64,000 nucleotides of DNA. It comes from an uncultured Gammaproteobacteria bacterium (GTDB lineage: Bacteria > Patescibacteriota > Microgenomatia > UBA10105 > UBA927). The notes under the pieces are model-generated. The model saw nothing but the letters and a program-made list of their open reading frames with translations. It made no database searches and was not told the DNA's origin. Where the stretch lies: the NCBI GenBank assembly GCA_964573695.1, contig CAZNKB010000002.1, positions 44,302 through 108,301 on the forward strand, given 5' to 3'. The translations under genes were made by a program, and so were the position numbers. Position 1 is the stretch's first letter. Each line of letters starts with the position of its first letter. Shown piece after piece: positions 1,101 through 18,165 of this stretch.

Positions 1101-1318
1101 GTATGCCTTTCTTCGCCCGAATAAGTAAAAAATAACCCCGCCAAGCGGGGTATATTTTTTCCCTACTCTAGGCAAATCATCCCGCCTCATTGGCGGACTC
1201 GTTGGGGCACCGCGGTCTCATTGACTCGGTTGCCGGGTGGATCATAAAGCGAGAGCTTTCCCCACCACTCTTGATTTATTAACTTGTCATCTACAGTACT
1301 CCTGTGCCTTACGTATTG

Positions 1319-6026: not shown

Positions 6027-6377
6027 ATGAATGACACGAAAAACGAGCATGTGCCGCCATTTGTACAATCCGATGATTTACCGGGTCCGCACGAGTTCCC
6101 CGAAGGAGACGTCGGCGACCAGCTCAGGGTAGCCAAAGTAGCAGAGCATCGGCGAAAAGAACTCCTCAAGCAACACGAGCGGAAAGAAAACCCGGGTGAC
6201 ACAATGCGGCGTATCATGAAGGAATCCGCACGAATAGAGGAATTGCGTCCAAAGCCCTCCGTCCAGACCGTCTTTGTGGCAGAAGCCAAACCGGATCCGG
6301 TACATCACGAGTTTGACCGCAGAGAAGATCCTTCTGCCACTCTCCGCAAAATTTTATCCACTGCTAAACCCAAGTAG
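6027..6377 (+). CDS. Hypothetical protein (116 aa, charged)
   Basis: ORF followed by a hairpin terminator. No motif recognised. Confidence 0.5.
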   Translation: MNDTKNEHVPPFVQSDDLPGPHEFPEGDVGDQLRVAKVAEHRRKELLKQHERKENPGDTMRRIMKESARIEELRPKPSVQTVFVAEAKPDPVHHEFDRREDPSATLRKILSTAKPK

Positions 6378-6711: not shown

Positions 6712-7686
6712 TCAGATCTGGGATGCGTTGAAGAACTCAATGAGGATTTTTTTAAAAGCCTTTACGCTTTGTTCGTCGTGGACCGAACCCGCAAATACCT
6801 TTTTACCCTGGGCCGTGAATATTTGGGCTGCCTCTTGGGCCTCCTTTTTGGTCACGAGATCCGTTTTGTTGAGGAAAACAATCTCGGGTTTCTCAAGGAG
6901 CGCCGGGTTAAACTCCCTAAATTCGTTACGCACGGTCTCATATGCCCGCAGGGGATTTTCCACGGTTATATCGATACAATGGACAAGTATTTTGGTCTTT
7001 TCTATGTGCTTGAGGAACTTGATCCCCAGGCCTATCCCACGCGAAGCTCCCTCGATAAGGCCGGGTATATCGGCGATTGGATAGGTACCAAACATCCCGA
7101 TCATCGGCTCGAGTGTGGTAAATGGATATGCACCGATTGCAGGGGTGGCATTGGTGAGTCTAGAGAGCAAGCTGCTTTTCCCGGCGTTGGGAAGTCCGAT
7201 AAGACCGATTTGTGCTATCAACCGCAGTTCCAGAAGGACGGTTTTTACTTCGCCTGCACCGCCAAGTTCCCGGTTTGTAGGAGCCTGATTGGTCGCCGAT
7301 TTGAATTTGAAGTTTCCGAAACCCCCCTTGCCCCCACGTGCTATGATTACGGGTTTATCTACCGACGAGATTTCCATGACACTGCCGCTATCCGCATCCG
7401 TCACGCGAGTGCCCAAAGGAACCTCAATGGTTATGTGTTGGGCGTTCTTCCCGAAGCCGTTATGTTTGGTACCGTGCCCACCGTTTTGCCCGACTACCTT
7501 TTTCTTGTACCGGAAATGCCGCAGGTCATTGACGTTTGTGGACCCCTGTATGAGGATGTCGCCGCCGTTGCCCCCATTACCACCGTCCGGGCCGCCGCGC
7601 GCTTTCATGGAGGTATGGGCAAACGTAGCCGCGCCATTGCCCCCGTCTCCCGCCTTTAAGATGATCGTCACGTTGTCTATGAGCAT
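6712..7686 (-). CDS. obg: GTPase Obg/CgtA
   Basis: Glycine-rich Obg fold (KAGDGGNGAATF, GGPDGGNGGNGGDI) plus G-domain GLIGLPNAGKSSLL. Confidence 0.93.
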   Translation of the reverse strand: MLIDNVTIILKAGDGGNGAATFAHTSMKARGGPDGGNGGNGGDILIQGSTNVNDLRHFRYKKKVVGQNGGHGTKHNGFGKNAQHITIEVPLGTRVTDADSGSVMEISSVDKPVIIARGGKGGFGNFKFKSATNQAPTNRELGGAGEVKTVLLELRLIAQIGLIGLPNAGKSSLLSRLTNATPAIGAYPFTTLEPMIGMFGTYPIADIPGLIEGASRGIGLGIKFLKHIEKTKILVHCIDITVENPLRAYETVRNEFREFNPALLEKPEIVFLNKTDLVTKKEAQEAAQIFTAQGKKVFAGSVHDEQSVKAFKKILIEFFNASQI

Positions 7687-7762: not shown

Positions 7763-9025
7763 TTATTTGGTCTCGTGTACAGTCGGAAGCTTCTTGCCTT
7801 TAAACAGCACGCCCCAATCGTTAATTTTCCCGTTCTCGCCCGCCGGGGGATTGATCCGTGAGGCCTGTAGGACATAGACGACCGGATCGGGTACCTTGTT
7901 CTTTTCGCGGATTTTGTCTTCCCAAAGCTCCAACATGGCCAAGCCGCCACCCAAATAGATACGGGTTTCATTTTTCCCCGACCCGTACATCCGGACATGA
8001 GGATTGATCCTTCCTTCGCGGCCTGTGGATAGCTTGTCCCCCATGTCGCCAACGGTAAATAATCCGAAGTCTACCATTTCGGGCTGTGTGTTGATGAGAT
8101 AATTGGAGCCGATGGCTTTGGTACCCAACCCGTAAGAGAGCGCCCCCACACGCACGAGTAGCGGCACTTTGCGATCCAGCGCACGTTTGATCGCGATTGT
8201 AATACCCTGTGTGGATGCCACTGCCACGCGTATTTCCTCCAGCGTGTGCTTGTGTGGCTTACCCATAGCGTCGTCGACCTCCTGATCTCCGATTATGGTG
8301 GCCCCTGATGCCAGACAGTCGTCAAAACGCGTGAGTCGCGCGTATTCATAAAGCCCCAGGCGTTTGCGTACCGCTGTGGCTCCCTTGGCAGAAAATCCTC
8401 CGAGACAATCGCTTACTGCCTGACGGTATCGCTGTTTCTTTTCGGCAGTCATGTCGGAATCATTGCCAAGAGTCGTAAGCTCACGCATCACCGGCGACAG
8501 GGAGCCGTTTCTGATTTCGATGATAATCTTACCTTCGTCGTCATTTTTGATCGCCCGCATAACGGGAATCTCTTCCTGGGGAGACACAATTTGGGCCGAA
8601 TCCTGTGAAGATATCGCCAGTACCGCCTCACGGTCGGTGTACAACCTACCGTTACCGTCTTCGCAGACGAAATTCAGACTTCTCAGGCCTTCGATAAACT
8701 TTTCGGCTGACAACCGTGTCCCTTCAATCGTCTCGACAAGCAGCGGCCCAAATAATACCTCTGCGTCTCCCGTATTGGGTTTGCCGTATTTTTGGGCTCC
8801 GTGCCACTGCTCCGGGATGCGTATGGTTTCTCCGTCTCCCGCAACTCTGATACGCACGTTTGCCGGTTTCCACTGGTCGTTAAAGTGGGCAAATATCTCC
8901 GGCACGGATATGTCCCGAAGGGATTTGCTCAGCTCTCGTGCCGTAGGCGGCTCCGGTGGGCGTGTAAAAATTTCGGTGAGATGTGAGGCTACATGAGGAG
9001 CGCGGCGTGGTGATTCTATACCCAT
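7763..9025 (-). CDS. Conserved hypothetical protein, 420 aa, family not identified
   Basis: Long ORF of native composition. Tested mentally against RuBisCO-like, thymidine/AMP phosphorylase, HMG-CoA reductase and TldD/PmbA with no convincing match. Confidence 0.7.
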   Translation of the reverse strand: MGIESPRRAPHVASHLTEIFTRPPEPPTARELSKSLRDISVPEIFAHFNDQWKPANVRIRVAGDGETIRIPEQWHGAQKYGKPNTGDAEVLFGPLLVETIEGTRLSAEKFIEGLRSLNFVCEDGNGRLYTDREAVLAISSQDSAQIVSPQEEIPVMRAIKNDDEGKIIIEIRNGSLSPVMRELTTLGNDSDMTAEKKQRYRQAVSDCLGGFSAKGATAVRKRLGLYEYARLTRFDDCLASGATIIGDQEVDDAMGKPHKHTLEEIRVAVASTQGITIAIKRALDRKVPLLVRVGALSYGLGTKAIGSNYLINTQPEMVDFGLFTVGDMGDKLSTGREGRINPHVRMYGSGKNETRIYLGGGLAMLELWEDKIREKNKVPDPVVYVLQASRINPPAGENGKINDWGVLFKGKKLPTVHETK

Positions 9026-9169
9026 AATTATGGGGATAGTAATATGCCGAAAAGAAAATTACAAGATTGGACGCTCTGTTTGTACGGTATCGCACTTTTT
9101 GGCACTACCCCATAACGCTGGGCAAGTTTGAATTTACCCCAACAATGTCCTATAATATTTAGCTCGTAG

Positions 9170-9772
9170 ATGCGAATCCTGGGAAACGCGCAGAAAATAC
9201 AATGCATTATGTTAGGAGAAATACCATTTCACACGCAAGAAACCCGTCGCAGCCGCAAATCCAGAAGTGCTTCCCAATACCGGGATGTCTTGCCTGAATA
9301 CGGCAAGCTGCTAGGACGGCTTTCCCGACACCTCATGTGGCATCACGGTGACGGCGTACTGACGCTGGGCAATTCGGCGGAAAACATGTGGAAAGACATG
9401 CGCTCGATGTCTCCGCTACAATCATTTGCCATACTGCCGCCTGCAGGGCATATCACCGGAGAAATTGCCTATGAACTCTATACCGGAAACCTTTTCGATA
9501 TGGAGTCCGCAGTCCGCCGATCCGGCATACTGTTTCCTGGTAGGGTGATTGTCGAAGATTATGCAAGAAGAGCTAGTAAAATCATCAAATTAGACGGGCT
9601 CTTTAAACACTTGGGATTTGCCGTGCGATTTGCCGTTCTCTATGCGTCACCTCATGCGTTATGGGAATTTGCCGATTATGGTATCCCCGTCCACGTAGTG
9701 GCGACCAAAACGAACCAAAGGCTTCAGGATTTGCTTGCTACACGGAAAACTGACCGTTGGCACAAGGAGTAG
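9170..9772 (+). CDS. Hypothetical protein (200 aa; alternative start at 9209)
   Basis: ORF with TATAAT 15 nt upstream. No motif recognised. Confidence 0.5.
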   Translation: MRILGNAQKIQCIMLGEIPFHTQETRRSRKSRSASQYRDVLPEYGKLLGRLSRHLMWHHGDGVLTLGNSAENMWKDMRSMSPLQSFAILPPAGHITGEIAYELYTGNLFDMESAVRRSGILFPGRVIVEDYARRASKIIKLDGLFKHLGFAVRFAVLYASPHALWEFADYGIPVHVVATKTNQRLQDLLATRKTDRWHKE

Positions 9773-9798
9773 CGCGCCACCCGGTCCGCACAGGAGAT

Positions 9799-10068
9799 CT
9801 ACGTACGGTAATAATGCGACTTCCAGTAATTTTTAAAAAACGGCAGCGTCAGCGTAGACAGAAAGAATCCTACCGTAGGGATGACCGCATTGATCCACGG
9901 CTTATCAACCTCAATGACGTACATATAGAGGCTTATGGACACGTACGTAAAAACCATAAGGATCACTTTCCGAAACAAGCTCGTTTCCCATGATTTGTCG
10001 AGCTCGACAGAGGCGTTTCGTTTTTCGATTGCGCCAATTCGCTGCTCCAACTCCGTTATAGAAGACAT
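9799..10068 (-). CDS. Small putative 2-TM membrane protein (89 aa)
   Basis: C-terminal part of a long track ORF, starting at ATG 10066-10068 (MSSITELEQRIGAIEKR...). Two hydrophobic helices. The upstream part of the track ORF is antisense to the DUF1801 gene. Confidence 0.4.
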   Translation of the reverse strand: MSSITELEQRIGAIEKRNASVELDKSWETSLFRKVILMVFTYVSISLYMYVIEVDKPWINAVIPTVGFFLSTLTLPFFKNYWKSHYYRT

Positions 10069-10186
10069 GATGAGATTATAACAATCGGAAAACGCGTGTA
10101 CAAACGCATGAAGGTGATCGCTGATATTTGACAACGACACACATTCACACTGTAATATTACGTACAATAGAAGAAAGGACGTACGT

Positions 10187-10618
10187 ATGAAAACCACCAG
10201 CAAAAAGATCACAGGATTTACCGACGACGAACGCGCTGCGATGAAGGAGCACATCCTGGAACTCCGGGCGGCCGCACCAGGCCAGGACGGGGAAAAAGCC
10301 GTACTTGGCAAAATCGCCCAAATGCCGGAACCGGACCGGGCTATGGCCAAACGTCTCCACACGATAATAAGAACAAATGCACCGTCACTTACGCCAAGAC
10401 TCTGGTACGGGATGCCAGCGTATGCCAACAAAGACGGCAAGGTCGTTTGTTTCTTCCAGGGAGCGAGCAAATTTAAGGCGCGGTACTCCACACTGGGATT
10501 CAATGACTCGGCGATGCTCGATGAAGGCGCCCTGTGGCCGACAGCCTTTGCGCTCAAGGAGCTAACGAGCTCCGTAGAGACCACTATCGCCAAGCTCGTG
10601 AAAAAAGCAGTGAGCTAA
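10187..10618 (+). CDS. DUF1801 (YdhG-like) family protein, 143 aa
   Basis: AAAGGA SD 9 nt upstream. Sequence resembles YdhG/DUF1801 small proteins (…[16 protein letters not shown]…[10 protein letters not shown]…). Confidence 0.55.
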
Positions 10619-10737
10619 AAGACGAGACAGTTACACTCCTGAAGTACAACAACTTCGCACATGGGAAAAATACATAGCAATGCGCGTGATTTGGTAGAGC
10701 GTAGATACGAAATTCGTACGCTTTATAAATAAGGGTA

Positions 10738-12087
10738 TTATTCGTATCTTCGACTGTCCTCAATAATATGTTTAATTATCTCAATCTTGTCTTTTGTTAA
10801 ATCGATTGTTTCCTTCATGCTTTCCCACCACATTGCTAATGATATGGCGCTATATATTGACGTCAACGTTTCGTATGATCCAATTCGTATTCTAGATTTA
10901 TGAGATACTAGATTTCTATATTTTCTAAGTTCTTTAAGGTTCTCGTTTATTATTTTTGGGAAAATTAGGTTTGCCCCAGAACTGTTGAGGTTCGAAATGC
11001 TGATGTCTAACATAGATTTTTGGTGGTTAGTATAGTTAATTGATTCTCGGATAAGATCAAATATTTGATTATGTTCATGTGCACTTTTTATCTTTGTTTT
11101 TTTGGCTTCTTCAAGTTTTTTGTATAAATCCTCTAAATTGTATTTTTTGAATGAGTTAGTTTTTAGTATGCTGCTGGTTTCACGACCTAATAAGCTATAC
11201 AAATCTCCGAATGATGCCTCTCTTGAACAAGCCTTTCTAAATAAGGTTTCGTAAATTTGGGTGAGGTATTCTTCTGCAATAATTCCCGAGTCGGATATAG
11301 AGTATTTATATTCCCTATCGAAGTAGTTTTTGATAGATGCTTCGATTAACTTATTTAGCCTTTTATCTTCGAGAATATGCTTATGTAAATAATTTAGTAC
11401 CTTAAAATAAGGAAGAAGGATTTTGTTGTCAGGTGAAAATACTAGCTGTAGTTTGAAGTTGGTAATTTTGCCAATTTTGATTAAAAACTTTGCAAAATTT
11501 TCAAGACCTTCCTTTTCAGCCGAAAAAAATATAATTTTTTGATTTTCACTGCCAGGGATAGGGAATAGTTCTAAAAATATTACATAGCTCTCTTTAAGTT
11601 TAAAAACGCCCCCTTTTCTGCTAATGTAATCAGAAAAATTATTATAATAAAGGTTGTCTTTGAATAGTTGGAAAGCTTCTGAGTAGTTCTTTTTAATATA
11701 CTTCTTGTTGATTCTTTTTAAATTCTGTCGAGCGACAAATTCCTCAACTGGAGAAATTTTCTCTTCGTTTACATCTTTAAGAATCGAGTCTTCAGATGAT
11801 TCACAACTAATCTTTCCGTTCACAAGATATCTGAATAGGATAAAAATTGACTCAATATCCCAAAATGCTCGAGATAAATACTTTTCATTAACTGGATCAG
11901 ATTTTATACGTCCTCGTTTTTCGGTTTTTGAAAACCTCTTTAATTGTGTTGTTAAATCGTTTTGTAAGTACTCTGTTATTCCTTCTTTCTTCAAGTAAGT
12001 AATATCCAAAAACCACATTCCTTGTTTTGTTGGATATTTTAGATAATTAATTAACTTTTCTTGTTGTTCTTTATTAAGTGTATTCAT
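10738..12087 (-). CDS. Hypothetical 449-aa protein with a C-terminal HEPN-like Rx4H motif (possible Abi-type RNase toxin)
   Basis: AT-rich ORF. The C-terminal helix ...NLKELRKYRNLVSHKSRIRIG... fits the HEPN Rx4-6H consensus. The N-terminal 380 aa is unrecognised. Confidence 0.65.
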   Translation of the reverse strand: MNTLNKEQQEKLINYLKYPTKQGMWFLDITYLKKEGITEYLQNDLTTQLKRFSKTEKRGRIKSDPVNEKYLSRAFWDIESIFILFRYLVNGKISCESSEDSILKDVNEEKISPVEEFVARQNLKRINKKYIKKNYSEAFQLFKDNLYYNNFSDYISRKGGVFKLKESYVIFLELFPIPGSENQKIIFFSAEKEGLENFAKFLIKIGKITNFKLQLVFSPDNKILLPYFKVLNYLHKHILEDKRLNKLIEASIKNYFDREYKYSISDSGIIAEEYLTQIYETLFRKACSREASFGDLYSLLGRETSSILKTNSFKKYNLEDLYKKLEEAKKTKIKSAHEHNQIFDLIRESINYTNHQKSMLDISISNLNSSGANLIFPKIINENLKELRKYRNLVSHKSRIRIGSYETLTSIYSAISLAMWWESMKETIDLTKDKIEIIKHIIEDSRRYE

Positions 12088-12202
12088 ATTAACTTACAAA
12101 AAAACTGCCCGTGAGGGCAGCTCGTGTAGTATACATCAAAACAATTATTTAACAAACTAATCATGTCATGTTTGGCGTGGCAGCTCTACAGAATCTACTT
12201 AT

Positions 12203-12247
12203 GTACTCCTGCCGGATGAATAGCAGCGCTAAGAAGCGCTCCGAACC
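12203..12247. repeat. att-like direct repeat copy 1: tRNA-Glu 3'-end fragment plus extension
   Basis: GTACTCCTGCCGGATGAATAGCAGCGCTAAGAAGCGCTCCGAACC is about 90% identical to 14585-14631. Followed at 12268-12296 by a palindromic hairpin flanked by A- and T-tracts. Confidence 0.6.
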
Positions 12248-12352
12248 CGCCTTAAAGCGAGGTTCATCGTCGTGAGGTACTAAAAACCGGCACCGGGCCG
12301 GTTTTCTTAGTACAGGTGTTGGGACGAAATTGGAACGACTCTTACTAGTCTC

Positions 12353-12949
12353 TTATAACGAATTGACTAGCATTTTTAATTTTGTAATATTTCTACAATA
12401 ACTGAAATAGTTTAATTCTGTCACCCTAAATGTGTCTGAGGATATTTTTGCATTTCTATTTCTAAAATTTAATGTTAAATCGTCATTATATGAATATTGC
12501 TTCTTTACTAGAATATCAATGATTTCATGAAATTTTCTATTGCGACTATATTCTGATATTTTATCTTTTAATATCGAAAGTAAGTTACTTTGAGCTCTCA
12601 GCTTTAGGATAATTTTGTTCGCCACTAATTTTGTTAGAATTTTATCTTTTAAGAAAACCTCTTCGACACCACGATGCAATTCACTAAGATCTGACTCAAA
12701 TTTCACACAGTCAGCTATTAAAATATCCTTCTCCATGCGTTTATTATTAATTTTTTTATCAAGATAAAAGGGAATATAAATAGCTATAAAAAATGTTAGA
12801 AGGAAGCTGGCTATATCACCAACAGCTAATTTAGTATCAAAAGTTAAATAAGGGAAGTCTCTTATTACAACTCCGAGCGCAATCCCTATTAGAAGAAAAA
12901 GAAGGGTTATTAAAACTTCAGCACTAATAAATCCTGTACCACTTTTCAC
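12353..12949 (-). CDS. Membrane protein, 198 aa, with two N-terminal TM helices and a helical cytoplasmic C-domain. Third gene of the cassette.
   Basis: GTG start overlaps the stop of the upstream gene (GTGA). Hydrophobic segments ISAEVLITLLFLLIGIALGVVI and IASFLLTFFIAIYIPFYL. Confidence 0.6.
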   Translation of the reverse strand: MKSGTGFISAEVLITLLFLLIGIALGVVIRDFPYLTFDTKLAVGDIASFLLTFFIAIYIPFYLDKKINNKRMEKDILIADCVKFESDLSELHRGVEEVFLKDKILTKLVANKIILKLRAQSNLLSILKDKISEYSRNRKFHEIIDILVKKQYSYNDDLTLNFRNRNAKISSDTFRVTELNYFSYCRNITKLKMLVNSL

Positions 12950-13290
12950 TGTGTATTAGTTTCGTCAATTATGCTTAATATAGAAGTGATCAAAAGAGGC
13001 TCATCATTACTTATTAATTTAATTTTTTCTTTAATTTTATTCTTGTCTTTATACTCTTTTGTTAATCTAGTAAAAACTTCTGAGGTGAACGAGGAAGCAT
13101 AACCAAAAGTTCCATCCAAATCTAGATTTAATATCTTAAATTCATCATTCCATACCAAATCAACTTTTGGTTTAAGAACGTCTATAAAGAAAGCCTCTCC
13201 AGAATTAGGTCCATCAGACCTATATCTTGCTCCAGGGTATTTACTAAAATCAGTTGCAATTTTAACCGTAATTTCTTCAATCGAAGTCAT
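12946..13290 (-). CDS. Small STAS-like (DUF4325-type, anti-sigma-antagonist-like) protein, 114 aa
   Basis: ATG at 13288-13290 lies 1 nt after the TAA of the upstream gene. ...ILNLDLDGTFGYASSFTSEVF... parallels the SpoIIAA DLSGVxFMDSSG phospho-Ser loop and matches the DUF4325 pattern. The track ORF adds 31 spurious N-terminal residues. Confidence 0.6.
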   Translation of the reverse strand: MTSIEEITVKIATDFSKYPGARYRSDGPNSGEAFFIDVLKPKVDLVWNDEFKILNLDLDGTFGYASSFTSEVFTRLTKEYKDKNKIKEKIKLISNDEPLLITSILSIIDETNTQ

Positions 13291-13291
13291 A

Positions 13292-14365
13292 TTAAGGCAC
13301 CAACTCCCAATAGTACATTGTGCCATTAAACATAGCACCAAGGGACTCAACTGTATCAGGCATATTATACCCGATCTTAGCAATTACATCATTACTCAGC
13401 ATAGTAAAGTGTTTTATTTGTTGATCTGATTTAACCCACTTGTATATGTTATATAAACCATTTCCTCTCTCCTCCAATTTTGTTGATGATCTATTAACTC
13501 CTGAAAATATTTTAACTAATGTAGCGCGATTGTCGGTAAGATTAATGACTGACTTAAAAAATGCGCTAAGGAGATTACGCTTGTATTTTTCTTCAAGGGA
13601 GTCAAAAATCCCAATACCTAAATCTAAAAAGCAAAACTTAGTTATTTTTGTTTCAGGCTCTTTATAAGCTAATAACCACCAGTTATATATTTTAATATTT
13701 TTATCTGGACTAGCATGGTTCCAACTATTAGACATGCACTCGATCAACATTGTGTAACTCTTCTGTCTCATGGGATCAACTTCTCCGAATGTGTGGTGGA
13801 CTGCCGACTCGACAATTTTTCCTGCTAATTCCGACTCAACTTGTTCTTTTGTAATGCGATGGATAAGTTTGTCTACATACTCCTGATCGGGGTTATAGTC
13901 TTTATTTTGAGATTTTACAAAATCAAAAAATCCTGATCTTGCAAAAACCTCTCTGATTTTTGCATCTTTTGGTGAAAAACCTTGCAGTGGTGTGTTACTA
14001 GTACAACTATCATCATTTATGAAAGCACAAAGATATGTAATAGTCTCAGGACCCATCACAACGACGTCTTTTAAGTCAAAAATAACAGGTGTTTTATTGC
14101 GTAAAAGATTTTTTGCATGTTGGAAAAAATTAATAACAATAAGCGGATCATTAAGTAGAGAAAATGTAGTCGGGGCTACACAATTTTCATGATCACTTTT
14201 TTGAGGGTGATCGACAAACTTCTTTACTCTAGCCCTATTAACTTGCTTGCTTAAATTCTCATACCTCAATTTTTTCCTTAATAATTTTCGTTCTCTATTA
14301 TGGTGCGCCTTCCTGATAGGGGAACGTTTAAGAAATTCGCGAAATTTATTTCCTCTTTTTTTCAT
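13292..14365 (-). CDS. STAS-domain / GHKL (HATPase_c) ATPase fusion protein (about 357 aa from ATG 14363-14365), anti-sigma-factor-kinase-like
   Basis: STAS: VIFDLKDVVVMGPETITYLCAF ... FSPKDAKIREVFARSGFFDFV, compare SpoIIAA IVLNLEDLSFMDSSGLGVIL ... ISPAVKRLFDMSGLF. GHKL boxes: N-box ECMSNSWNHA, G1 FLDLGIGIFD, G2 RGNGLYNI. The track start (TTG at 14527) translates GC-rich palindromic att DNA, so ATG 14365 is preferred. Confidence 0.65.
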   Translation of the reverse strand: MKKRGNKFREFLKRSPIRKAHHNRERKLLRKKLRYENLSKQVNRARVKKFVDHPQKSDHENCVAPTTFSLLNDPLIVINFFQHAKNLLRNKTPVIFDLKDVVVMGPETITYLCAFINDDSCTSNTPLQGFSPKDAKIREVFARSGFFDFVKSQNKDYNPDQEYVDKLIHRITKEQVESELAGKIVESAVHHTFGEVDPMRQKSYTMLIECMSNSWNHASPDKNIKIYNWWLLAYKEPETKITKFCFLDLGIGIFDSLEEKYKRNLLSAFFKSVINLTDNRATLVKIFSGVNRSSTKLEERGNGLYNIYKWVKSDQQIKHFTMLSNDVIAKIGYNMPDTVESLGAMFNGTMYYWELVP

Positions 14366-14390
14366 ATTAGCTTTGTAATCTATCAAATGG

Positions 14391-14399
14391 ATTATATCA
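14391..14399 (-). promoter_or_regulatory. Extended -10 element (TGATATAAT) for the cassette operon
   Basis: Reverse complement of 14391-14399 is TGATATAAT, about 26 nt upstream of ATG 14365. Confidence 0.3.
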
Positions 14400-14584
14400 T
14401 CGGGACAAAATACGTTATTAAGGAGCGCCGCCTCTTGATGCGCGTCAGGGGTGAGTCCTCGAACCCGCGACAGCCCTTGACGCGCATCCGTGTTCCATAA
14501 TTGTTCTAGAGGGAGGATGCTTTCCAAGGGAAGCCCGGATTTGGTTTGAATTAGCTTTACACCTCGGAGGTGTAGGTACCAGGA

Positions 14585-14631
14585 GTACCCCCTTGCCGGA
14601 TGAATAACAGCGCAAAGAAGCGCTCCGAACC
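14585..14631. repeat. att-like direct repeat copy 2: tRNA-Glu 3'-end fragment plus extension
   Basis: GTACCCCCTTGCCGGATGAATAACAGCGCAAAGAAGCGCTCCGAACC. The first 17 nt match the 3' end of the intact tRNA-Glu at 14776-14792. Confidence 0.6.
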
Positions 14632-14658
14632 GGATTTGGTTTGACTACAAACCACTCA

Positions 14659-14693
14659 CCAGCACTAATGCTCGAAGACTCGCAAAGTGCTGG
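14659..14693. repeat. Hairpin element H1 (CCAGCACT...AGTGCTGG), paralogous to H2 at 14906-14950
   Basis: 8-bp perfect stem between the shared flanks CACTCA and ACTGCG. H2 has CCAGCAGT...ACTGCTGG, a compensatory C:G to G:C change that preserves pairing. Confidence 0.4.
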
Positions 14694-14736
14694 ACTGCGA
14701 ACCGGTAAACCGGTTCAAATCGCCAAGCGAATATTC

Positions 14737-14771
14737 ACAAAAAAATCCGGCGACATGCCGGATTCTTTTTG
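14737..14771. terminator. Hairpin terminator immediately downstream of tRNA-Glu
   Basis: AAAAAAA-TCCGGC-gacat-GCCGGA-TTCTTTTT. Bidirectional geometry. Confidence 0.5.
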
Positions 14772-14775
14772 TGAG

Positions 14776-14849
14776 TACCCCCTGCCGGATTCGAACCGGC
14801 GATTCACGGGCTGAAAACCCGTTGTCCTAGGCCGCTAGACGAAGGGGGC
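14776..14849 (-). tRNA. tRNA-Glu (anticodon TTC)
   Basis: Reverse complement GCCCCCTTCGTCTAGCGGCCTAGGACAACGGGTTTTCAGCCCGTGAATCGCCGGTTCGAATCCGGCAGGGGGTA. Cloverleaf with G1-U72 and anticodon loop UUUUCAG. Confidence 0.85.
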
Positions 14850-14905
14850 AATATTCACTTGTTAACGAATCCGGCAAGCCGGATTGCCGAGATTATTCGG
14901 CACTC

Positions 14906-14950
14906 ACCAGCAGTAAGTCTCGCTTCGCTTGCTCCACTCATCAACTGCTG
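14906..14950. repeat. Hairpin element H2 plus tRNA-Glu 5'-like fragment (GCGCCCCCTTCGTTGCCGG at 14985-15003 on the minus strand)
   Basis: See H1. An additional partial copy of the tRNA-Glu 5' end lies at about 14980-15003. Confidence 0.35.
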
Positions 14951-15122
14951 GACTGCGCCTCGATTCCGATGTTACCGGGGACCGGCAACGAAGGGGGCGC
15001 TACTACCAAGTATTGTACCAAATATCAGGGACAAAAAAAATAACGCCCGAAATCTGTACCAAACAGCACTCCGCATATTTGCGGACTACGTGTTGGCCCA
15101 AAAAGGGCGTTATACCATATCG

Positions 15123-15539
15123 TCAATTGTCCCCCCGAATAATATTCGCTGACCATTTCATGAGCATACCAAACACTGCAGATATGATGACAGGTTTGAT
15201 AAACTGCATGACGGAAAATTGTATAAACCAGGCATTCCTAGCAGTCTCAGTAACATCTGCCTGGAGCGCTACGGGAACACCGTATAATAAAATCGGCCAT
15301 AGCGCGGCGTTAACACAGACAATAATCCACGACCACACGCCGTAGTCAGCCGCCAAAATAAACGCGGCGATGACTGCGACAATCAATTGCAACAGTATGA
15401 GAAATTGATAGTCCGGTGGCTCTGCTGCTATGTTATACGCAAGTATTCCGACAGGCGGGCCGATGCTGACTATGAACAATAAAAGAAATTGATTTATCTT
15501 TTTCTTGTGTTTCTTTGGTTTCCATTTGTTGACTGGCAT
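15123..15539 (-). CDS. Hypothetical polytopic membrane protein (alternative start at 15581)
   Basis: Lys-rich N-terminus followed by 4 hydrophobic helices. Confidence 0.5.
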   Translation of the reverse strand: MPVNKWKPKKHKKKINQFLLLFIVSIGPPVGILAYNIAAEPPDYQFLILLQLIVAVIAAFILAADYGVWSWIIVCVNAALWPILLYGVPVALQADVTETARNAWFIQFSVMQFIKPVIISAVFGMLMKWSANIIRGDN

Positions 15540-15819
15540 AGGGGTATCCTCCGGTGAAAAAATTTGAATGAAGCTATCCAAAGCGATTTAGGTACTTCGC
15601 TCCAGGTAGCCTCATCCAATCCGAAGGAGGGCAAAACGACATGTCAAAGAACCACCTGCCGCACCCGCTTACCACTCCGGCGTGTCGGAGCGTGCCAATG
15701 CGATAGGTAATGTGCGATTATATCGCACCAAAGCCAAAAACTCATCTTCTCACCCATATCCGTTACCATTCCTAACCTTTCGATTTGCTTATCTTTTGGG
15801 CACCCACTAGACTACACTC

Positions 15820-17085
15820 ATGGAACGAAGCCCGGAACCCCTACCGAAACGGCGATACGAATCCCCACTTCACCTCACCTGGGAAGTCAAAGACCCGGTC
15901 AAATTTACCGAGCTTGAGGACGTCGTCACAAAGCAACATAAACTCATGACGAACCCTCCCGCCGTATTTCGGGGCGGAGGTGTATTCTCCCCGACTTCAA
16001 AGGATTTGGCGCTTCCCTATCGTCATTTTCTCGCTTCGGAGCGCCCTTTTGTCGTCATGCCGGTAACGACGGAAGCAGGCGGCAAGCTTACGGACGTCAT
16101 CCACTTCCCGACGTCTACGGAAGAATTGAGATTCGATGCCAATCTAGCGGCGTATAAGCAGCACCTCGGAGACTATGTTTCGGGTCACTGGAACAAAGAA
16201 GGTATGTCACCTATCCCGAAGACGACTGATATCACCACGCTTCCTGACGGACGCTATGTGACGACGGAGGAATACCGCGGCTATACCAAAGGCATCGGCA
16301 AAGGCCCGGGAGCTCTTGGTATCCATGAGCTGGATATCCAGCATGTTACACCCGACGATATGCGCCATATCGTACGGACACTCAGCAGCGCCACTCCTAG
16401 CTCCAGAGACTTCTACAGTTGGATAAGAGAAAACAACCGCGTATTGCCGGAGGAAAGTTTACTCAATCCCGCTAACCCCAAGACGGCACTGCGCGGACAG
16501 GAATGGTGGTCTTCGCCCGGAGCCCCGCAGGAAACGAGATCCCAGGAACTCGCCAAACAGCTCAAACCCCTGGAAAAGGATTTCCATGCGGTCGATCCGG
16601 CTATGGATCCATACCAAAAAATTGTGACCCTCATCGAGAACAATATGCAGATATTTCTTCATCAGAACGGACAGGCGGATCACCCTGAGCTCGTCGCAGA
16701 GCCGGTCGTCGTCCACGGCGCGCTCTATCCGGATAACATACAATTGTCGCGCCAGAGAGGCACCCAGGTTCCCGACGTTACGATACTTGGCGGAGATCGC
16801 GCACACATCGGCGTACGGGGAGAAATGATCGACTGGCTAGTGACTGCCGCTGCAGAATCTCCCGCGCATCAAAAGGCCATGATTGAGGAATTCATCGCTC
16901 TTCACCCTTCCGAATCAGACAGGCGTGGGCTGGCGATGCACGTGCTGTACCGCTCACTCAAAGAAGCGCCCTGGTTTGCCAAACACCGGCCCTCGGCTTA
17001 CCGAAACCTCATCCGACTCAGTTACGATATCCTGGAAGGAAATGGTATCTGGAAGGACGTCAATACCCCATACAACGCCAAATAA
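15820..17085 (+). CDS. Protein-kinase-like / aminoglycoside-phosphotransferase-fold protein (421 aa) with a non-canonical catalytic loop
   Basis: VVVHGALYPDNI aligns to the APH/CHK catalytic loop HGDLHPGN, with D replaced by A. ...GEMIDWL... aligns to the IDWE metal-binding motif. Confidence 0.55.
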   Translation: MERSPEPLPKRRYESPLHLTWEVKDPVKFTELEDVVTKQHKLMTNPPAVFRGGGVFSPTSKDLALPYRHFLASERPFVVMPVTTEAGGKLTDVIHFPTSTEELRFDANLAAYKQHLGDYVSGHWNKEGMSPIPKTTDITTLPDGRYVTTEEYRGYTKGIGKGPGALGIHELDIQHVTPDDMRHIVRTLSSATPSSRDFYSWIRENNRVLPEESLLNPANPKTALRGQEWWSSPGAPQETRSQELAKQLKPLEKDFHAVDPAMDPYQKIVTLIENNMQIFLHQNGQADHPELVAEPVVVHGALYPDNIQLSRQRGTQVPDVTILGGDRAHIGVRGEMIDWLVTAAAESPAHQKAMIEEFIALHPSESDRRGLAMHVLYRSLKEAPWFAKHRPSAYRNLIRLSYDILEGNGIWKDVNTPYNAK

Positions 17086-17119
17086 CTCTCCTTATCTTGC
17101 ACCTCACTGTGAGTTTGGA

Positions 17120-17524
17120 TTACATGCTCGTCCGCTCGAGGAACTGGACTGCGGGAGAGTGCCTCCGTATACGGTGCAGCGTATCTATAGTCACTTGCTC
17201 ATTCTTTCTGTGAGTATTGATATTGTAGACTTGCACCACCATAGCGGCGATATTCGGGATAATGCCGCGAATTGCGTCCGGCCGCGGGCCCTTCAGTTTT
17301 TCTTCTATTTCGTCAAGCATGCCGTTCCACAAATCCTCCAGCCTCACGCGTCTTCGGAGCGCCCCGTAGGTAAATCCGGTCAGACTATCCCACTCCCCCC
17401 GTGTGATTCCGTGGTTTACGTTATCCTTCGGCATAGTTTCGTCGGATATCGCAAAAATGAGCCTATCCCGCTTATCGATGTATTCCAAAGACATAATCCG
17501 TAATTGTATCATACTATAGGTCAT
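17120..17524 (-). CDS. Hypothetical protein (134 aa from ATG 17522-17524; the track start at 17581 is a TTG)
   Basis: ORF only. Confidence 0.45.
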   Translation of the reverse strand: MTYSMIQLRIMSLEYIDKRDRLIFAISDETMPKDNVNHGITRGEWDSLTGFTYGALRRRVRLEDLWNGMLDEIEEKLKGPRPDAIRGIIPNIAAMVVQVYNINTHRKNEQVTIDTLHRIRRHSPAVQFLERTSM

Positions 17525-17601
17525 AATACAACACTCCCTACGTTCTTCATGAAGCGGGATAACTATTGCTACAATAACCAAAATACCCTATAATTTCCCA
17601 A

Positions 17602-18165
17602 ATGCGCTCGCACGAACATCCTGTACTCCCACTTCTTCGCCAGGCAGAAGCCGCATGGCGCCGAAAAACGACTACCTCTTCGGTATCTGCCCGCCTACAA
17701 AGAAACGTCACCAGACTATTTGAATTGGCGAAAGATCAGCCCGACGTCCTGAGCGTACGAGCGCAGGATCTCGATAGCGCTGTACGGCTGTTTAACCACC
17801 TGCGTCGAAGCAATAGCCTTACTGGCGCCGAATCACGCACACTTGCCCAGATACTCCCCGGAGAATTCCGTCTTCCTACATTTGGCCAATTATCCCGAAA
17901 CACAAGGCAATCCAGATCGTTTTTTGACATGATGATTTCCCGGCTGCAACGGGGCGATTACGGATTTACCCAAAATATCGCCCAACCGGAAACACTGGGT
18001 ACCCTGACCATACTTTCCGGCTATAGCCTGGCGACACATCGGCAATTAGCGTTTCGCAGGCACGCCGTGGGTTCGGGATTTGATAATATCCTCGTAAGCG
18101 GCCTCAGTACCATGCTCAACCCCGAAAGCGCACTCTATCGCGATATTTTCCGCGCCGCGGCCTAA
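17602..18165 (+). CDS. Hypothetical protein (187 aa)
   Basis: ORF. TATAAT at 17588-17593, only 8 nt before the ATG, so possibly leaderless. Confidence 0.5.
   Translation: MRSHEHPVLPLLRQAEAAWRRKTTTSSVSARLQRNVTRLFELAKDQPDVLSVRAQDLDSAVRLFNHLRRSNSLTGAESRTLAQILPGEFRLPTFGQLSRNTRQSRSFFDMMISRLQRGDYGFTQNIAQPETLGTLTILSGYSLATHRQLAFRRHAVGSGFDNILVSGLSTMLNPESALYRDIFRAAA

What the first reader, a model, noticed from the sequence alone, without database searches (positions are those of the whole stretch)
10640..14850. Low-GC islet beside tRNA-Glu, with direct repeats made from the tRNA 3' end and no integrase
GC content drops sharply between about 10.72 and 14.43 kb. All four genes there lie on one strand and are AT-rich. 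Two 45-bp direct repeats (12203-12247 and 14585-14631, about 90% identical) begin with the terminal 16-17 nt of the intact tRNA-Glu (14776-14849, minus strand), which is the classic attL/attR signature of tRNA-3'-end integration. The internal repeat splits the region into a 2.3-kb unit (the three-gene cassette) and a 1.5-kb unit (the HEPN-motif gene), so two sequential insertions or a composite element are possible. A weak third vestige (…ACTCCTG… around 10650-10690) may mark the far end. No integrase, excisionase or transposase is present, so this would be a degraded or in-trans mobilised element.
Basis: seen in the sequence. Interest (0 to 1): 0.75.

Follow-up and report, generated by a model that had tools for sequence, protein, structure and literature searches.

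The report
Gene-cassette stack behind tRNA-Glu
The AT-rich 4-kb stretch beside a tRNA-Glu gene of an uncultured Patescibacteria bacterium is foreign DNA: defence-like gene cassettes stacked in a modular array whose units all end in the tRNA's last four bases. The same layout recurs with other cargo in related genomes, which suggests an integron-like gene-capture site with no recombinase nearby.

Summary
The stretch 10620-14424 has GC 0.33 against 0.50 elsewhere, holds four minus-strand genes, and contains two 45-nt repeats that start like the tRNA-Glu 3' end. The interpretation needs revision, because the repeats are not the island's attL/attR.

A close relative (L010) lacks all four genes but keeps one copy of the repeat 50 nt from its tRNA-Glu. 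The repeats belong to small non-coding "terminator + pseudo-tRNA-3'-end" modules.

The three-gene unit (GHKL-type ATPase, DUF4325/STAS-like protein, membrane protein) is a cassette. It ends in a 27-nt site, GTTCCAATTTCGTCCCAACACCTGTAC (12310-12336). That site closes ten unrelated cassettes in seven contigs; in the four where a tRNA-Glu(UUC) gene is visible, they lie just downstream of it, up to three in a row.

Every module ends in GTAC, the last four bases of the tRNA. Relative to L010, 2,465 nt were inserted exactly at that GTAC.

No recombinase was found in the window. Elsewhere the same three-gene operon lies within 5 kb of a tyrosine or serine recombinase in 3 of 4 contexts.

Best reading: integron-like or tycheposon-like accretion of cassettes at the tRNA-Glu 3' end by an unlinked recombinase (inferred, about 0.6). 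The HEPN gene is a second foreign unit whose far boundary is unclear.

The parts
14775..14849 (-). tRNA-Glu(UUC). Its last four bases, GTAC (14775-14778), are the junction at which modules are inserted.
   Evidence: ARAGORN and Rfam tRNA at 56.8 bits. By eye, the gene is identical in L013, L014 and L017.
14741..14765 (-). Terminator-like hairpin T2, directly after the tRNA. It is the start of module 1.
   Evidence: Terminator scan and sequence. Comparable hairpins follow the tRNA in L011 and L013.
14645..14716 (-). 'seg' structured element, copy B. It has three hairpins and lies inside a mimic of the tRNA T arm (CCGGTTCG | insert | CAAATCCGG).
   Evidence: Alignment A7. 19 pairs, 93% paired, 8 with compensatory changes, and 0 of 500 shuffles as good. 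Fold z-score -3.7.
14585..14631 (-). Repeat R2. It mimics the 3' half of the tRNA: TTCG, a 24-nt hairpin insert, then ATCCGGCAAGGGGGTAC. It is the end of module 1.
14425..14488 (-). GC-rich head hairpin element (15-bp stem) upstream of the cassette's genes. It is 97% identical over 63 nt to L013 8857-8919.
   Evidence: blastn, alignment A5, inverted repeat I21 and fold.
13292..14371 (-). Cassette gene 1: a 359-aa protein with a GHKL (Bergerat-fold) ATPase domain in its C-terminal half.
   Evidence: 35 homologues. Invariant N-box E211/N215/H219, G1 D250xGxG254 and G2 R302-G303-x-G305. AlphaFold2 pLDDT 82. All top Foldseek hits are Hsp90, GyrB, Topo II or CheA, with weak E-values of about 1e-3.
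12946..13272 (-). Cassette gene 2: DUF4325 (STAS-like) protein.
   Evidence: Pfam PF14213, E = 2.8e-8, 33.8 bits against a cut-off of 23. Adjacent to the ATPase gene in all four other contexts; carries a DUF4325 Pfam hit in three, with no Pfam hit recorded for L025/L026.
12353..12949 (-). Cassette gene 3: a 198-aa protein. That it is a membrane protein is my reading of its hydrophobic N-terminus.
   Evidence: ORF. 34-48% identical counterparts occupy the same position in L004-L009.
12310..12336 (-). Cassette tail site: GTTCCAATTTCGTCCCAACACCTGTAC on the minus strand. Conservation stops exactly at GTAC.
   Evidence: Unique in the window. Ten copies in seven contigs score 32-37 bits with nhmmer.
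12283..12305 (-). Terminator-like hairpin T1. Together with R1 it forms module 3, the homologue of the tRNA-proximal module of L010.
   Evidence: Alignment A3. Homology begins at GTAC|TAAGAAA, and the stems differ by compensatory changes.
12203..12247 (-). Repeat R1, a mimic of the tRNA 3' half that ends ...ATCCGGCAGGAGTAC. It is the end of module 3.
   Evidence: It is 97.5% identical to the single copy in L010.
10738..12087 (-). Second foreign unit: a 449-aa protein with a C-terminal HEPN motif (R391-N392-x3-H396).
   Evidence: About 190 family representatives. R391, N392 and H396 are invariant in 50 sequences. 5 of 50 homologues hit Pfam HEPN_RiboL-PSP. Absent from L010.
10690..10721 (-). 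Possible decayed tail site just after the HEPN stop codon. This is weak.
   Evidence: nhmmer 5 bits, E = 8.4, which is noise level, though in the expected place and orientation. By eye it matches the site consensus at about 16 of 23 positions.
14860..14998 (-). 'seg' copy A, between the promoter and the tRNA. It is preceded by an 11-nt copy of the tRNA 5' end (14988-14998).
   Evidence: (D11, D13). A shortened version is in L010.

Best explanation
The islet is foreign cargo stacked in a modular array behind the tRNA-Glu(UUC) gene of a Patescibacteria (CPR) bacterium.

Reading in the tRNA's direction, each unit ends in GTAC, except the last, whose end is unclear:
1. The tRNA itself.
2. A non-coding module: terminator T2, the 'seg' element, then the pseudo-3'-end R2.
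3. The head hairpin, the three genes, then the 27-nt tail site.
4. A non-coding module: terminator T1, then the pseudo-3'-end R1.
5. The HEPN gene, whose tail may be decayed.

Shown:
- The 27-nt tail site closes unrelated cassettes in other genomes. In the four contigs where a tRNA-Glu(UUC) gene is visible, they lie just downstream of it.
- Conservation of the site stops exactly at GTAC.
- In L017 the first cassette starts immediately after the tRNA's GTAC.
- Compared with relative L010, a 2,465-nt block sits precisely between the tRNA's GTAC and the T1-R module.
- The order of modules differs between genomes.

Inferred:
- Cassettes move as units by site-specific recombination between their tail site and the GTAC end of the tRNA or of a pseudo-3' end.
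- The recombinase is encoded elsewhere in the genome or on another element.
- New units enter next to the tRNA and push older ones outward.
- This resembles an integron (primary site plus one-sided cassette sites) and the build-up of tRNA-proximal islands by tycheposons.

Cargo function is also inferred:
- The GHKL ATPase, the STAS-like DUF4325 protein and the membrane protein look like a partner-switching-type sensor/effector module of the kind found in defence islands.
- The 449-aa protein is a HEPN (RiboL-PSP-like) putative RNase.
For: - Foreign composition.
- Empty-site-type comparison. L010 is syntenic on both sides at 83-86% DNA identity but has 1.25 kb of other genes instead of the 4.15-kb islet. 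None of the four islet proteins is found in L010, L011 or L013.
- Exact junction. In the window the sequence reads ...CACCTGTAC|TAAGAAAACCGG-hairpin-TTTTTAGTACC. In L010 it reads tRNA...GGGGGTAC|TAAGAAATCCCG-hairpin-TTTTTAGTACC.
- Tail site. There are 10 copies at 32-37 bits: window 1, L013 3, L014 1, L016 1, L017 2, L019 1, L022 1. Where a tRNA-Glu is in the locus, all copies have the same orientation relative to it. The DNA before and after each copy is unrelated.
- L017 reads tRNA-GTAC|cassette-site-GTAC|cassette-site-GTAC.
- L013 has three cassettes in a row ending next to obg, and shares the 63-nt head hairpin with the window at 97% identity although the cargo differs.
- Pseudo-3' ends follow their own tRNA. 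L011 has AATCCGACACGGAGTAC against its tRNA's AATCCGACACGGGGTAC. L013 matches 17 of 17.
- No recombinase in the window or next to the arrays of L014 and L022.
- The same three-gene operon lies close to recombinases elsewhere. In L004-6 it sits in a 7.85-kb stretch that starts with a tyrosine integrase gene and is bounded by 38-nt direct repeats. In L007-9 it lies 1.4 kb from a large serine recombinase gene that abuts tRNA-Lys. In L023 a tyrosine integrase lies 2.8 kb upstream and a type I restriction subunit about 4 kb downstream.
- Published analogue: tRNA-proximal islands built by successive integrations, with partial tRNAs scattered through them (bioRxiv 10.1101/2020.12.28.424599).
Against: - No recombinase has been identified, and no circular cassette or excision junction has been seen.
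- Only one side of each junction is conserved, and the sequence shared with the tRNA is just GTAC (plus A or T at the next base in 20 of 21 junctions read by eye). That is short for a classical tyrosine-recombinase overlap region.
- The tail site is neither palindromic nor attC-like.
- ORF orientation within cassettes is mixed: about four forward and three reverse in the small cassettes.
- The data set is small: 10 sites in 7 metagenomic contigs.
- One site, in L022, lies 3.5 kb from a tRNA-Glu(CUC) whose gene does not end in GTAC.
- The HEPN unit has no convincing tail site.
- The role of the head hairpin, the 'seg' element and the R repeats is unexplained. Their history could also involve ordinary homologous exchange.
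Confidence: 0.6

Rival explanations
1. A degraded integrase-type genomic island, or two in tandem, integrated into the tRNA-Glu 3' end. The two 45-nt repeats are its attL/attR-type scars, and the integrase was lost by deletion.
For: - The repeats carry 14-16 of the last 16-17 nt of the tRNA.
- The repeats bracket the three-gene unit.
- The operon lies close to integrases elsewhere.
- Tandem integration at tRNA genes is well known.
Against: - L010 lacks the islet yet has the repeat next to its tRNA.
- Between the cassette and R1 lie the 27-nt tail site and terminator T1. T1 is homologous to L010's tRNA-proximal terminator, so R1 belongs to a neighbouring module and not to the cassette.
- The same tail site closes cassettes of 0.5-0.8 kb that could never have held an integrase.
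- The HEPN unit lies outside the repeat pair.
Confidence: 0.15
2. A flexible (hypervariable) region maintained only by homologous recombination through the conserved flanks (DUF1801 gene, tRNA-Glu and the tRNA-like repeats). The 27-nt motif would be a regulatory, terminator or protein-binding element that travels with the genes, not a recombination site.
For: - Homology with L010 ends exactly at the DUF1801 stop codon on one side and at the tRNA on the other.
- Several conserved non-coding elements (R, seg, head hairpin) could serve as homology patches.
- No recombinase was found.
Against: - Conservation of the site stops at the same base (GTAC) in all ten copies, and the tRNA ends with the same four bases.
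- Cassette number and order differ between genomes in whole-module steps.
- The site occurs up to three times in 1.5 kb between unrelated genes.
- The site is 96% identical between genomes whose flanking protein is only 57% identical.
Confidence: 0.17
3. Single-strand (HUH/Y1, IS200/IS605-like) transposition of non-autonomous elements that target the tetranucleotide GTAC.
For: - Insertion is directly 3' of a fixed tetranucleotide.
- Orientation is fixed.
- There is no target duplication beyond GTAC.
- A hairpin lies near one end in the window and in L013.
Against: - The tail site has no subterminal hairpin.
- Most cassettes have no conserved head end at all.
- All copies are at one locus rather than at the many GTAC sites of the genome.
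- No tnpA or tnpB gene was seen.
Confidence: 0.05
4. An assembly or binning chimera: low-GC DNA from another organism joined to this contig through the repeats.
For: - The GC step is sharp.
- The repeats lie at unit borders.
- The source is a metagenome-assembled contig.
Against: - An independent Logan assembly (L001) spans the DUF1801-HEPN-R1-tail site-TM gene stretch at 99.97% identity.
- The same architecture, with other cargo, is seen in independent samples L013, L014 and L017.
Confidence: 0.03

Closest known systems
Integrons and CALINs (cassette arrays with attC sites, with or without an integron integrase)
   Same: - Small units of mostly 0.5-2.3 kb (L022 up to about 3.5 kb), holding 1-3 genes that mostly have no known function, are stacked in a row at one primary site.
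- Each unit carries one conserved site at one end.
- Conservation stops at the crossover point.
- The module order in the window compared with L010 fits entry next to the primary site.
- As in CALINs, no integrase is adjacent.
   Different: - The primary site is the 3' end of a tRNA gene rather than attI.
- The cassette site is 27 nt and non-palindromic, with no R''/R' GTTRRRY boxes.
- No IntI was found.
- ORF orientation is mixed.
- The host is a Patescibacteria lineage.
Tycheposon-built tRNA-proximal islands of Prochlorococcus (bioRxiv 10.1101/2020.12.28.424599)
   Same: - A streamlined genome with a hot spot next to a tRNA gene.
- Successive insertions push older ones inward.
- Partial tRNA copies are scattered through the island.
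- Cargo includes defence-type genes.
   Different: - Tycheposons carry their own tyrosine recombinase and replication genes and are flanked by partial tRNAs.
- Here the units are far smaller and have no recombinase.
- Here the cargo cassettes end in a site that shares only GTAC with the tRNA.
CIMEs: cis-mobilisable elements formed by site-specific accretion at tRNA or fda 3' ends in Streptococcus (from my own knowledge; not checked in a paper here)
   Same: att-bounded DNA without recombination genes, stacked in tandem next to a conserved gene's 3' end and dependent on an integrase supplied by another element.
   Different: - CIME internal att sites keep arms on both sides and a core of tens of bases identical to the target.
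- Here only one arm is conserved and the shared core is 4-5 nt.
Classical tRNA-integrated genomic islands (P4-type integrase, with attL/attR made from the tRNA 3' end)
   Same: - Located at a tRNA 3' end.
- Foreign base composition.
- Absent from a close relative.
- tRNA 3'-end copies are present.
   Different: - No integrase.
- The tRNA-like repeats are not the cargo's boundaries, and they persist in the relative that lacks the cargo.

Membership tests
Classical tRNA-integrated genomic island | Lies directly at the 3' end of a tRNA gene | tested here: met
   The inserted block starts at the base after the tRNA's GTAC.
Classical tRNA-integrated genomic island | The distal boundary is a direct repeat of the tRNA 3' segment (attR) | tested here: not met
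   The cassette's distal end (12310-12336) shares only GTAC with the tRNA; a local alignment is no better than shuffles, p = 0.35. The tRNA-like repeats R1 and R2 belong to separate modules and occur in L010 without the cargo.
Classical tRNA-integrated genomic island | Integrase gene inside the island | tested here: not met
   The Pfam, PADLOC and NCBIfam scans of the four genes, and the Pfam scans of 35 further window ORFs, gave no recombinase. tblastn was negative.
Classical tRNA-integrated genomic island | Absent from related genomes at the same site | tested here: met
   L010 is syntenic on both sides and lacks all four genes.
Integron / CALIN | Integron integrase (IntI) next to the array | tested here: not met
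   No tyrosine recombinase in the 64-kb window or beside the arrays of L014 and L022. Absence of IntI is allowed for CALINs.
Integron / CALIN | attC sites: imperfect palindromes of about 57-141 nt with R''/R' (GTTRRRY) boxes | tested here: not met
   The site is 27 nt, has no inverted repeat and has no GTTRRRY box. The DNA upstream of each copy is unrelated and shows no complementary box. No attC covariance model was run.
Integron / CALIN | Tandem cassettes, each with one site at one end, inserted at one primary site | tested here: met
   L017 has 2 cassettes and L013 has 3. The window has 1 plus non-coding modules. The first L017 cassette abuts the tRNA's GTAC.
Integron / CALIN | Cassette ORFs nearly all in one orientation | tested here: inconclusive
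   The window and L014 are forward. L013 cassettes 2 and 3 and L017 cassette 1 are reverse.
Tycheposon-like element | Element-borne tyrosine recombinase and replication module | tested here: not met
   None in the islet.
Tycheposon-like element | tRNA-proximal island with scattered partial tRNAs | tested here: met
   Copies of the tRNA 3' end at 14585-14601 and 12203-12217. T-arm-like pieces at about 14689-14706 and 14459-14470. A 5'-end copy at 14988-14998.
HEPN superfamily (449-aa protein) | Conserved Rx4-6H motif | tested here: met
   R391, N392 and H396 are invariant in 50 family members.
HEPN superfamily (449-aa protein) | Significant match to a HEPN profile or fold | tested here: inconclusive
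   The protein itself has no Pfam hit. 5 of 50 homologues hit PF18735 HEPN_RiboL-PSP, best E = 5.5e-5. No significant PDB fold match for the whole model.
GHKL ATPase (359-aa protein) | N-box, G1 (DxGxG) and G2 motifs, and the Bergerat fold | tested here: met
   The motif residues are invariant in 32 sequences. All top Foldseek hits are GHKL proteins with probability up to 0.94, but E is only about 1e-3. There is no Pfam hit.
DUF4325 (STAS-like) | Pfam PF14213 score above the gathering threshold | tested here: met
   33.8 bits against a cut-off of 23, E = 2.8e-8.
Known anti-phage defence systems (PADLOC) | Match to any PADLOC-DB model | tested here: not met
   No hits at E <= 0.1 for any of the four proteins.

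The most novel reading that the evidence does not exclude
A clade of Patescibacteria carries a gene-capture platform that works like an integron but is built from different parts. The 3' end of tRNA-Glu (and its decoy copies) serves as the primary insertion site. A non-palindromic 27-nt sequence ending in GTAC serves as the cassette site. The recombinase is unlinked and not yet identified. The conserved 'terminator + structured seg element + pseudo-3'-end' modules are functional adapters that restore a terminator and a fresh docking site after each insertion.
Probability: 0.35. Interest if true: 0.8.

Novelty: new variant of a known kind. Interest (0 to 1): 0.62.

Why it matters
CPR/Patescibacteria have tiny genomes and few recognisable mobile elements, so how they take up accessory and defence genes is poorly understood.

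A cassette array anchored on a tRNA 3' end would be a compact gene-capture route for such genomes. It has a short conserved cassette site and no recombinase beside it. That would extend the integron idea beyond IntI and attC.

It also gives two concrete search handles. One is the 27-nt site. The other is the set of tRNA-like decoy modules. Both can be used to map flexible gene pools in uncultured bacteria.

The cargo is also of interest. It consists of two uncharacterised, probably defensive gene sets: a conserved GHKL ATPase + DUF4325 + membrane-protein operon, and a 450-aa HEPN family with about 190 cluster representatives.

Tried and rejected
- The third vestige at about 10650 (ACTCCTG) is only a 7-nt match, which is chance level. 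An alternative decayed tail site at 10690-10721 scores only 5 bits (E = 8.4) and is kept as a weak possibility.
- Rfam found nothing but the tRNA in 12050-15300 at E <= 5.
- PADLOC and NCBIfam gave no assignment for the four proteins.
- The genome-contig scan with the 421-aa flank protein returned one locus, cut inside the gene, which was useless for the site.
- Exact-protein look-ups of several window proteins found only short contigs of the same organism, or nothing.
- Four viral-contig scans (seg motif, R repeat, tail site, head hairpin) all gave 0 hits.
- Similarity between the cassette's distal end and the tRNA beyond GTAC is not significant.
- I considered the tail site as a dif/Xer-like site and rejected it by eye: its arms are not palindromic.
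- I considered it as a serine-recombinase site. That is unlikely, because the cassette starts show no conserved half-site.
- The 449-aa protein looked like an orphan in the word-indexed search, but the exhaustive HMMER search found a family.
- The PDB fold search for the 449-aa model and the PDB sequence searches for the ATPase and DUF4325 proteins gave nothing significant.
- Four metagenome hits (L015, L018, L020, L021) match only the 21-nt core. L015 and L020 were checked and the match lies inside an ORF; L018 and L021 carry the same flanking sequence as L020. All four sit in GC-normal DNA. I treat them as chance or unrelated.
- I did not find att repeats for the tRNA-Lys element of L007.

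Full report

Yes.
- GC in 400-nt windows falls from 0.56 to 0.27-0.38 between about 10.6 and 14.4 kb and then recovers to 0.53.
- The islet 10620-14424 has GC 0.326 against 0.498 for the rest of the window. It is the only part of the 64 kb below 0.42. The four genes have GC3 of 0.21-0.30, against 0.59-0.64 for six flanking and housekeeping genes.
- All four ORFs are on the minus strand.
- tRNA-Glu(UUC) is at 14775-14849 on the minus strand.
- The direct repeat 12210-12247 / 14594-14631 matches at 36 of 38 positions and is unique in the window, with no match in any shuffle.
- Each copy is preceded by a copy of the tRNA 3' end. Repeat 2 matches at 16 positions over 17 alignment columns, with one indel. 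Repeat 1 matches 14 of 16.
- An independent assembly of the same organism (L001) reproduces 9789-12766 at 99.97% identity, so the left half is not a chimera.
- No integrase, excisionase or transposase was found in the islet or among 35 other Pfam-scanned ORFs of the window. tblastn with recombinases taken from related contexts was also negative.

**2. The host and its relatives**

The window is a bacterial chromosome carrying DnaE, ATP synthase, CTP synthase, Obg and other housekeeping genes. Homologues of the 421-aa flank protein are labelled Patescibacteria.

Three relatives were recovered with their tRNA-Glu neighbourhood:
- L010: flank protein 87% identical, DNA 83-86% identical.
- L013: flank protein 57% identical.
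- L011: flank protein 54% identical.

**3. The repeats are not the island's ends**

L010 is syntenic with the window on both sides:
- Window 9003-10619 corresponds to L010 6169-7790.
- The tRNA corresponds to the tRNA.
- Window 14989-17999 corresponds to L010 9171-12169.

Between the DUF1801 stop codon and the tRNA, L010 has 1.25 kb with two other small genes. The window has the 4.15-kb islet there instead. None of the four islet proteins is encoded in L010, L011 or L013.

L010 nevertheless has one copy of the 45-nt repeat (8944-8989, 96-97.5% identical to the window's copies). It lies about 50 nt downstream of its tRNA, after a terminator hairpin (T1).

In the window, the sequence next to repeat 1 is homologous to L010's tRNA-T1-repeat segment:
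- Window: ...CACCTGTAC|TAAGAAAACCGGCCCGGTGCCGGTTTTTAGTACCTCACG...
- L010: tRNA...GGGGGTAC|TAAGAAATCCCGCAATAGCGGGATTTTTAGTACCCTCACG...

The terminator stems differ by compensatory changes (alignment A3). Relative to an L010-like state, therefore, 2,465 nt were inserted exactly after the tRNA's terminal GTAC. The insert itself also ends in GTAC.

**4. The three-gene unit is a cassette with conserved ends**

L013 has an identical tRNA-Glu. It shares two short, nearly identical elements with the window, although the genes between them are unrelated:
- A 63-nt GC-rich hairpin element. Window 14425-14486 corresponds to L013 8857-8919 at 97% identity.
- A 27-nt tail site. Window 12310-12336 corresponds to L013 7616-7642 at 96% identity.

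L013 has two more copies of the tail site (6171-6197 and 6810-6836) in the same orientation. These delimit three cassettes in a row that end next to obg.

A metagenome scan for the site's 21-nt core gave nine loci. Five of them hold full 27-30-nt sites. Together with the window and L013, that makes ten copies in seven contigs, each scoring 32-37 bits against a profile of the site.

Properties of the site:
- The consensus on the tRNA's strand is GTTC-N-R-ATTTCGTCCCAACACCTGTAC.
- The DNA before each copy is AT-rich and unrelated between copies.
- The DNA after GTAC is also unrelated between copies.

Arrays in other loci:
- L017: the tRNA's ...GGGGGTAC is followed immediately by a 663-nt cassette ending in the site, then by a 531-nt cassette ending in the site.
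- L014: the order is tRNA, a terminator module ending in the pseudo-3' end AAATCCGGCAGGGGGTAC, then a 762-nt cassette ending in the site.
- L022: a RhuM + PIF1-helicase + GNAT block ends in the site, 3.5 kb from a tRNA-Glu(CUC). That tRNA does not end in GTAC, so this case fits less well.

Most cargo proteins have no Pfam family.

**5. Anatomy of the window's array**

Reading on the minus strand, the units are:
- The tRNA, ending in GTAC at 14775.
- Module 1: terminator T2 (14741-14765), the 'seg' element (14645-14716) and repeat R2, ending in GTAC at 14585.
- Module 2: linker, head hairpin (14425-14488), GHKL ATPase gene, DUF4325 gene, membrane-protein gene and the tail site, ending in GTAC at 12310.
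- Module 3: T1 (12283-12305) and repeat R1, ending in GTAC at 12203.
- The HEPN unit: a terminator at 12102-12123 and the gene at 10738-12087.

After the HEPN stop codon there is at best a decayed site (10690-10721; 5 bits, E = 8.4, noise level but in the right place and orientation). Homology with L010 resumes exactly at the DUF1801 stop codon.

Module order differs between genomes:
- In L010 the T1-R module is first after the tRNA.
- In L013 it is second, after the seg module and before the hairpin cassette.
- In the window it is third.

These differences are in steps of whole modules.

**6. What the repeats are**

Read on the tRNA's strand, R is CGG-TTCG-[GAGCGCTTCTTAGCGCTGTTATTC]-ATCCGG-CAGGGGGTA(C). 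That is the tRNA's T arm and acceptor 3' strand, with a 24-nt hairpin inserted in the T loop. This description is my reading.

The seg modules have the same design with a larger insert: CCGGTTCG-[seg]-CAA(A)TCCGG...GTAC. Their pseudo-3' ends follow the host's own tRNA:
- L011 has AATCCGACACGGAGTAC, against its tRNA's AATCCGACACGGGGTAC.
- L013 matches 17 of 17.

They are parts of recurrent non-coding decoy modules, not borders of the cargo.

The seg element has three helices with 93% of cells paired. Eight of 19 pairs show compensatory changes among only four copies, and 0 of 500 shuffles did as well. A second copy (A) lies between the promoter and the tRNA, preceded by an 11-nt copy of the tRNA 5' end. 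I cannot explain these elements.

**7. The cargo**

The 359-aa protein:
- It has 35 homologues at 51% identity or less, mostly about 360 aa long, from CPR and other phyla.
- Its invariant residues form an N-box, a G1 motif and a G2 motif.
- The AlphaFold2 model (pLDDT 82) matches only GHKL ATPases, though weakly.

The operon:
- The next gene is DUF4325, which is STAS-like.
- The third gene encodes a 198-aa protein with a hydrophobic N-terminus.
- All three proteins are conserved in the same order in L004-L009. Gene calls of matching size and order are seen in L023 and L025.
- In L004-6 the operon is the distal cargo of a 7.85-kb stretch that starts with a tyrosine integrase gene and is bounded by 38-nt direct repeats at the ftsZ 3' end.
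- In L007-9 it lies 1.4 kb from a large serine recombinase gene that abuts tRNA-Lys.
- In L023 a tyrosine integrase lies 2.8 kb upstream and a type I restriction subunit about 4 kb downstream.
- In L025 no recombinase lies within 8 kb.
- Those host genomes are low in GC (0.30-0.40), which fits the islet's composition.

The 449-aa protein:
- It belongs to a family of about 190 cluster representatives.
- R391-N392-x3-H396 is invariant.
- 5 of 50 members hit Pfam HEPN_RiboL-PSP.
- No PADLOC model matches any of the four proteins.

A defence or conflict role is an inference from domain content and neighbourhood.

**8. Mechanism**

Shown:
- Modular units that all end in GTAC.
- A one-sided conserved 27-nt site.
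- An exact insertion at the tRNA's GTAC relative to a close relative.
- Different cargo and different module order in relatives.
- No linked recombinase.

Inferred (confidence about 0.6): cassettes are inserted by site-specific recombination between their tail site and the GTAC end of the tRNA or of a decoy, catalysed in trans. New units enter next to the tRNA.

This works like an integron or CALIN. It also resembles the successive integrations that build tRNA-proximal islands in Prochlorococcus.

It is not a member of either family. There is no IntI, the site is not attC-like, and there is no element-borne recombinase.

Rival explanations:
- Degraded classical island: 0.15.
- Pure homologous exchange of a flexible region: 0.17.
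- HUH-type transposition: 0.05.
- Assembly chimera: 0.03.

**9. Verdict**

The finding is more interesting than a decayed island, but the key actor, the recombinase, is missing. The data set is also small: ten sites, all from metagenomic contigs.

Noticed in passing
window 14645-14716 and 14872-14988; L011 4278-4383; L013 9648-9753: A conserved structured element ('seg') of about 100 nt with three helices. 8 of 19 pairs change in a compensatory way among four copies. It is embedded in a mimic of the tRNA-Glu T arm and has no Rfam match. The window has one copy downstream and one upstream of the tRNA.
   Followed up: partly
window 14988-14998 (minus strand); L010 about 9160-9170: An 11-nt copy of the tRNA-Glu 5' end (GCCCCCTTCGT) sits right after the promoter-like TGGTACAAT box, 139 nt upstream of the real tRNA. 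It looks as if an older tRNA start had been displaced. L010 has a shortened version.
   Followed up: no
window 14535-14549 and 14630-14644: An exact 15-nt direct repeat, CCGGATTTGGTTTGA. On the tRNA strand it reads TCAAACCAAATCCGG, which is another T-arm 3'-strand mimic. The two copies bracket repeat R2.
   Followed up: no
window 14459-14470, inside the head hairpin: The hairpin loop contains TCGCGGGTTCGA, matching 11 of 12 positions of the tRNA-Glu variable-loop/T-arm segment. It breaks off in the T loop, like the other tRNA-like fragments.
   Followed up: no
window 1145-1282 (minus strand): A SAM-I/IV riboswitch match just above the Rfam gathering score (41.6 against 41.1 bits). In relatives L011 and L013 an S-adenosylmethionine synthetase gene lies next to the dinB/IMS gene at the corresponding place.
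   Followed up: no
L004 4282-4319 and 12122-12159: 38-nt direct repeats (82% identical), one at the 3' end of ftsZ. They bound a 7.85-kb stretch that starts with a tyrosine integrase gene and carries the GHKL-DUF4325-TM operon as distal cargo.
   Followed up: partly
L007/L008 7030-8574; L009 181-1725: The gene call for a 514-aa large serine recombinase overlaps the whole tRNA-Lys(CUU) gene on the opposite strand. This suggests integration at that tRNA. No att repeat was found within the locus.
   Followed up: partly
L022 456-482 and 4041-4115: A full tail site lies 3.5 kb from a tRNA-Glu(CUC) that ends in GCAC rather than GTAC. The cargo is a RhuM-family protein, a PIF1-like helicase and a GNAT. 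This does not fit the simple GTAC rule.
   Followed up: partly
L015 2035-2055; L018 1871-1891; L020 9724-9744; L021 8899-8919: Exact matches to the 21-nt core of the tail site, in DNA of normal GC and without the GTTC prefix. L015 and L020 were checked and the match lies inside an ORF; L018 and L021 share L020's flanking sequence. They are probably chance or unrelated.
   Followed up: partly
window 15820-17085: The conserved 421-aa protein beside the tRNA-Glu locus has no Pfam family. It contains HGALYPDN...DW, which by eye recalls the catalytic-loop motifs of aminoglycoside/choline-kinase-like phosphotransferases.
   Followed up: no
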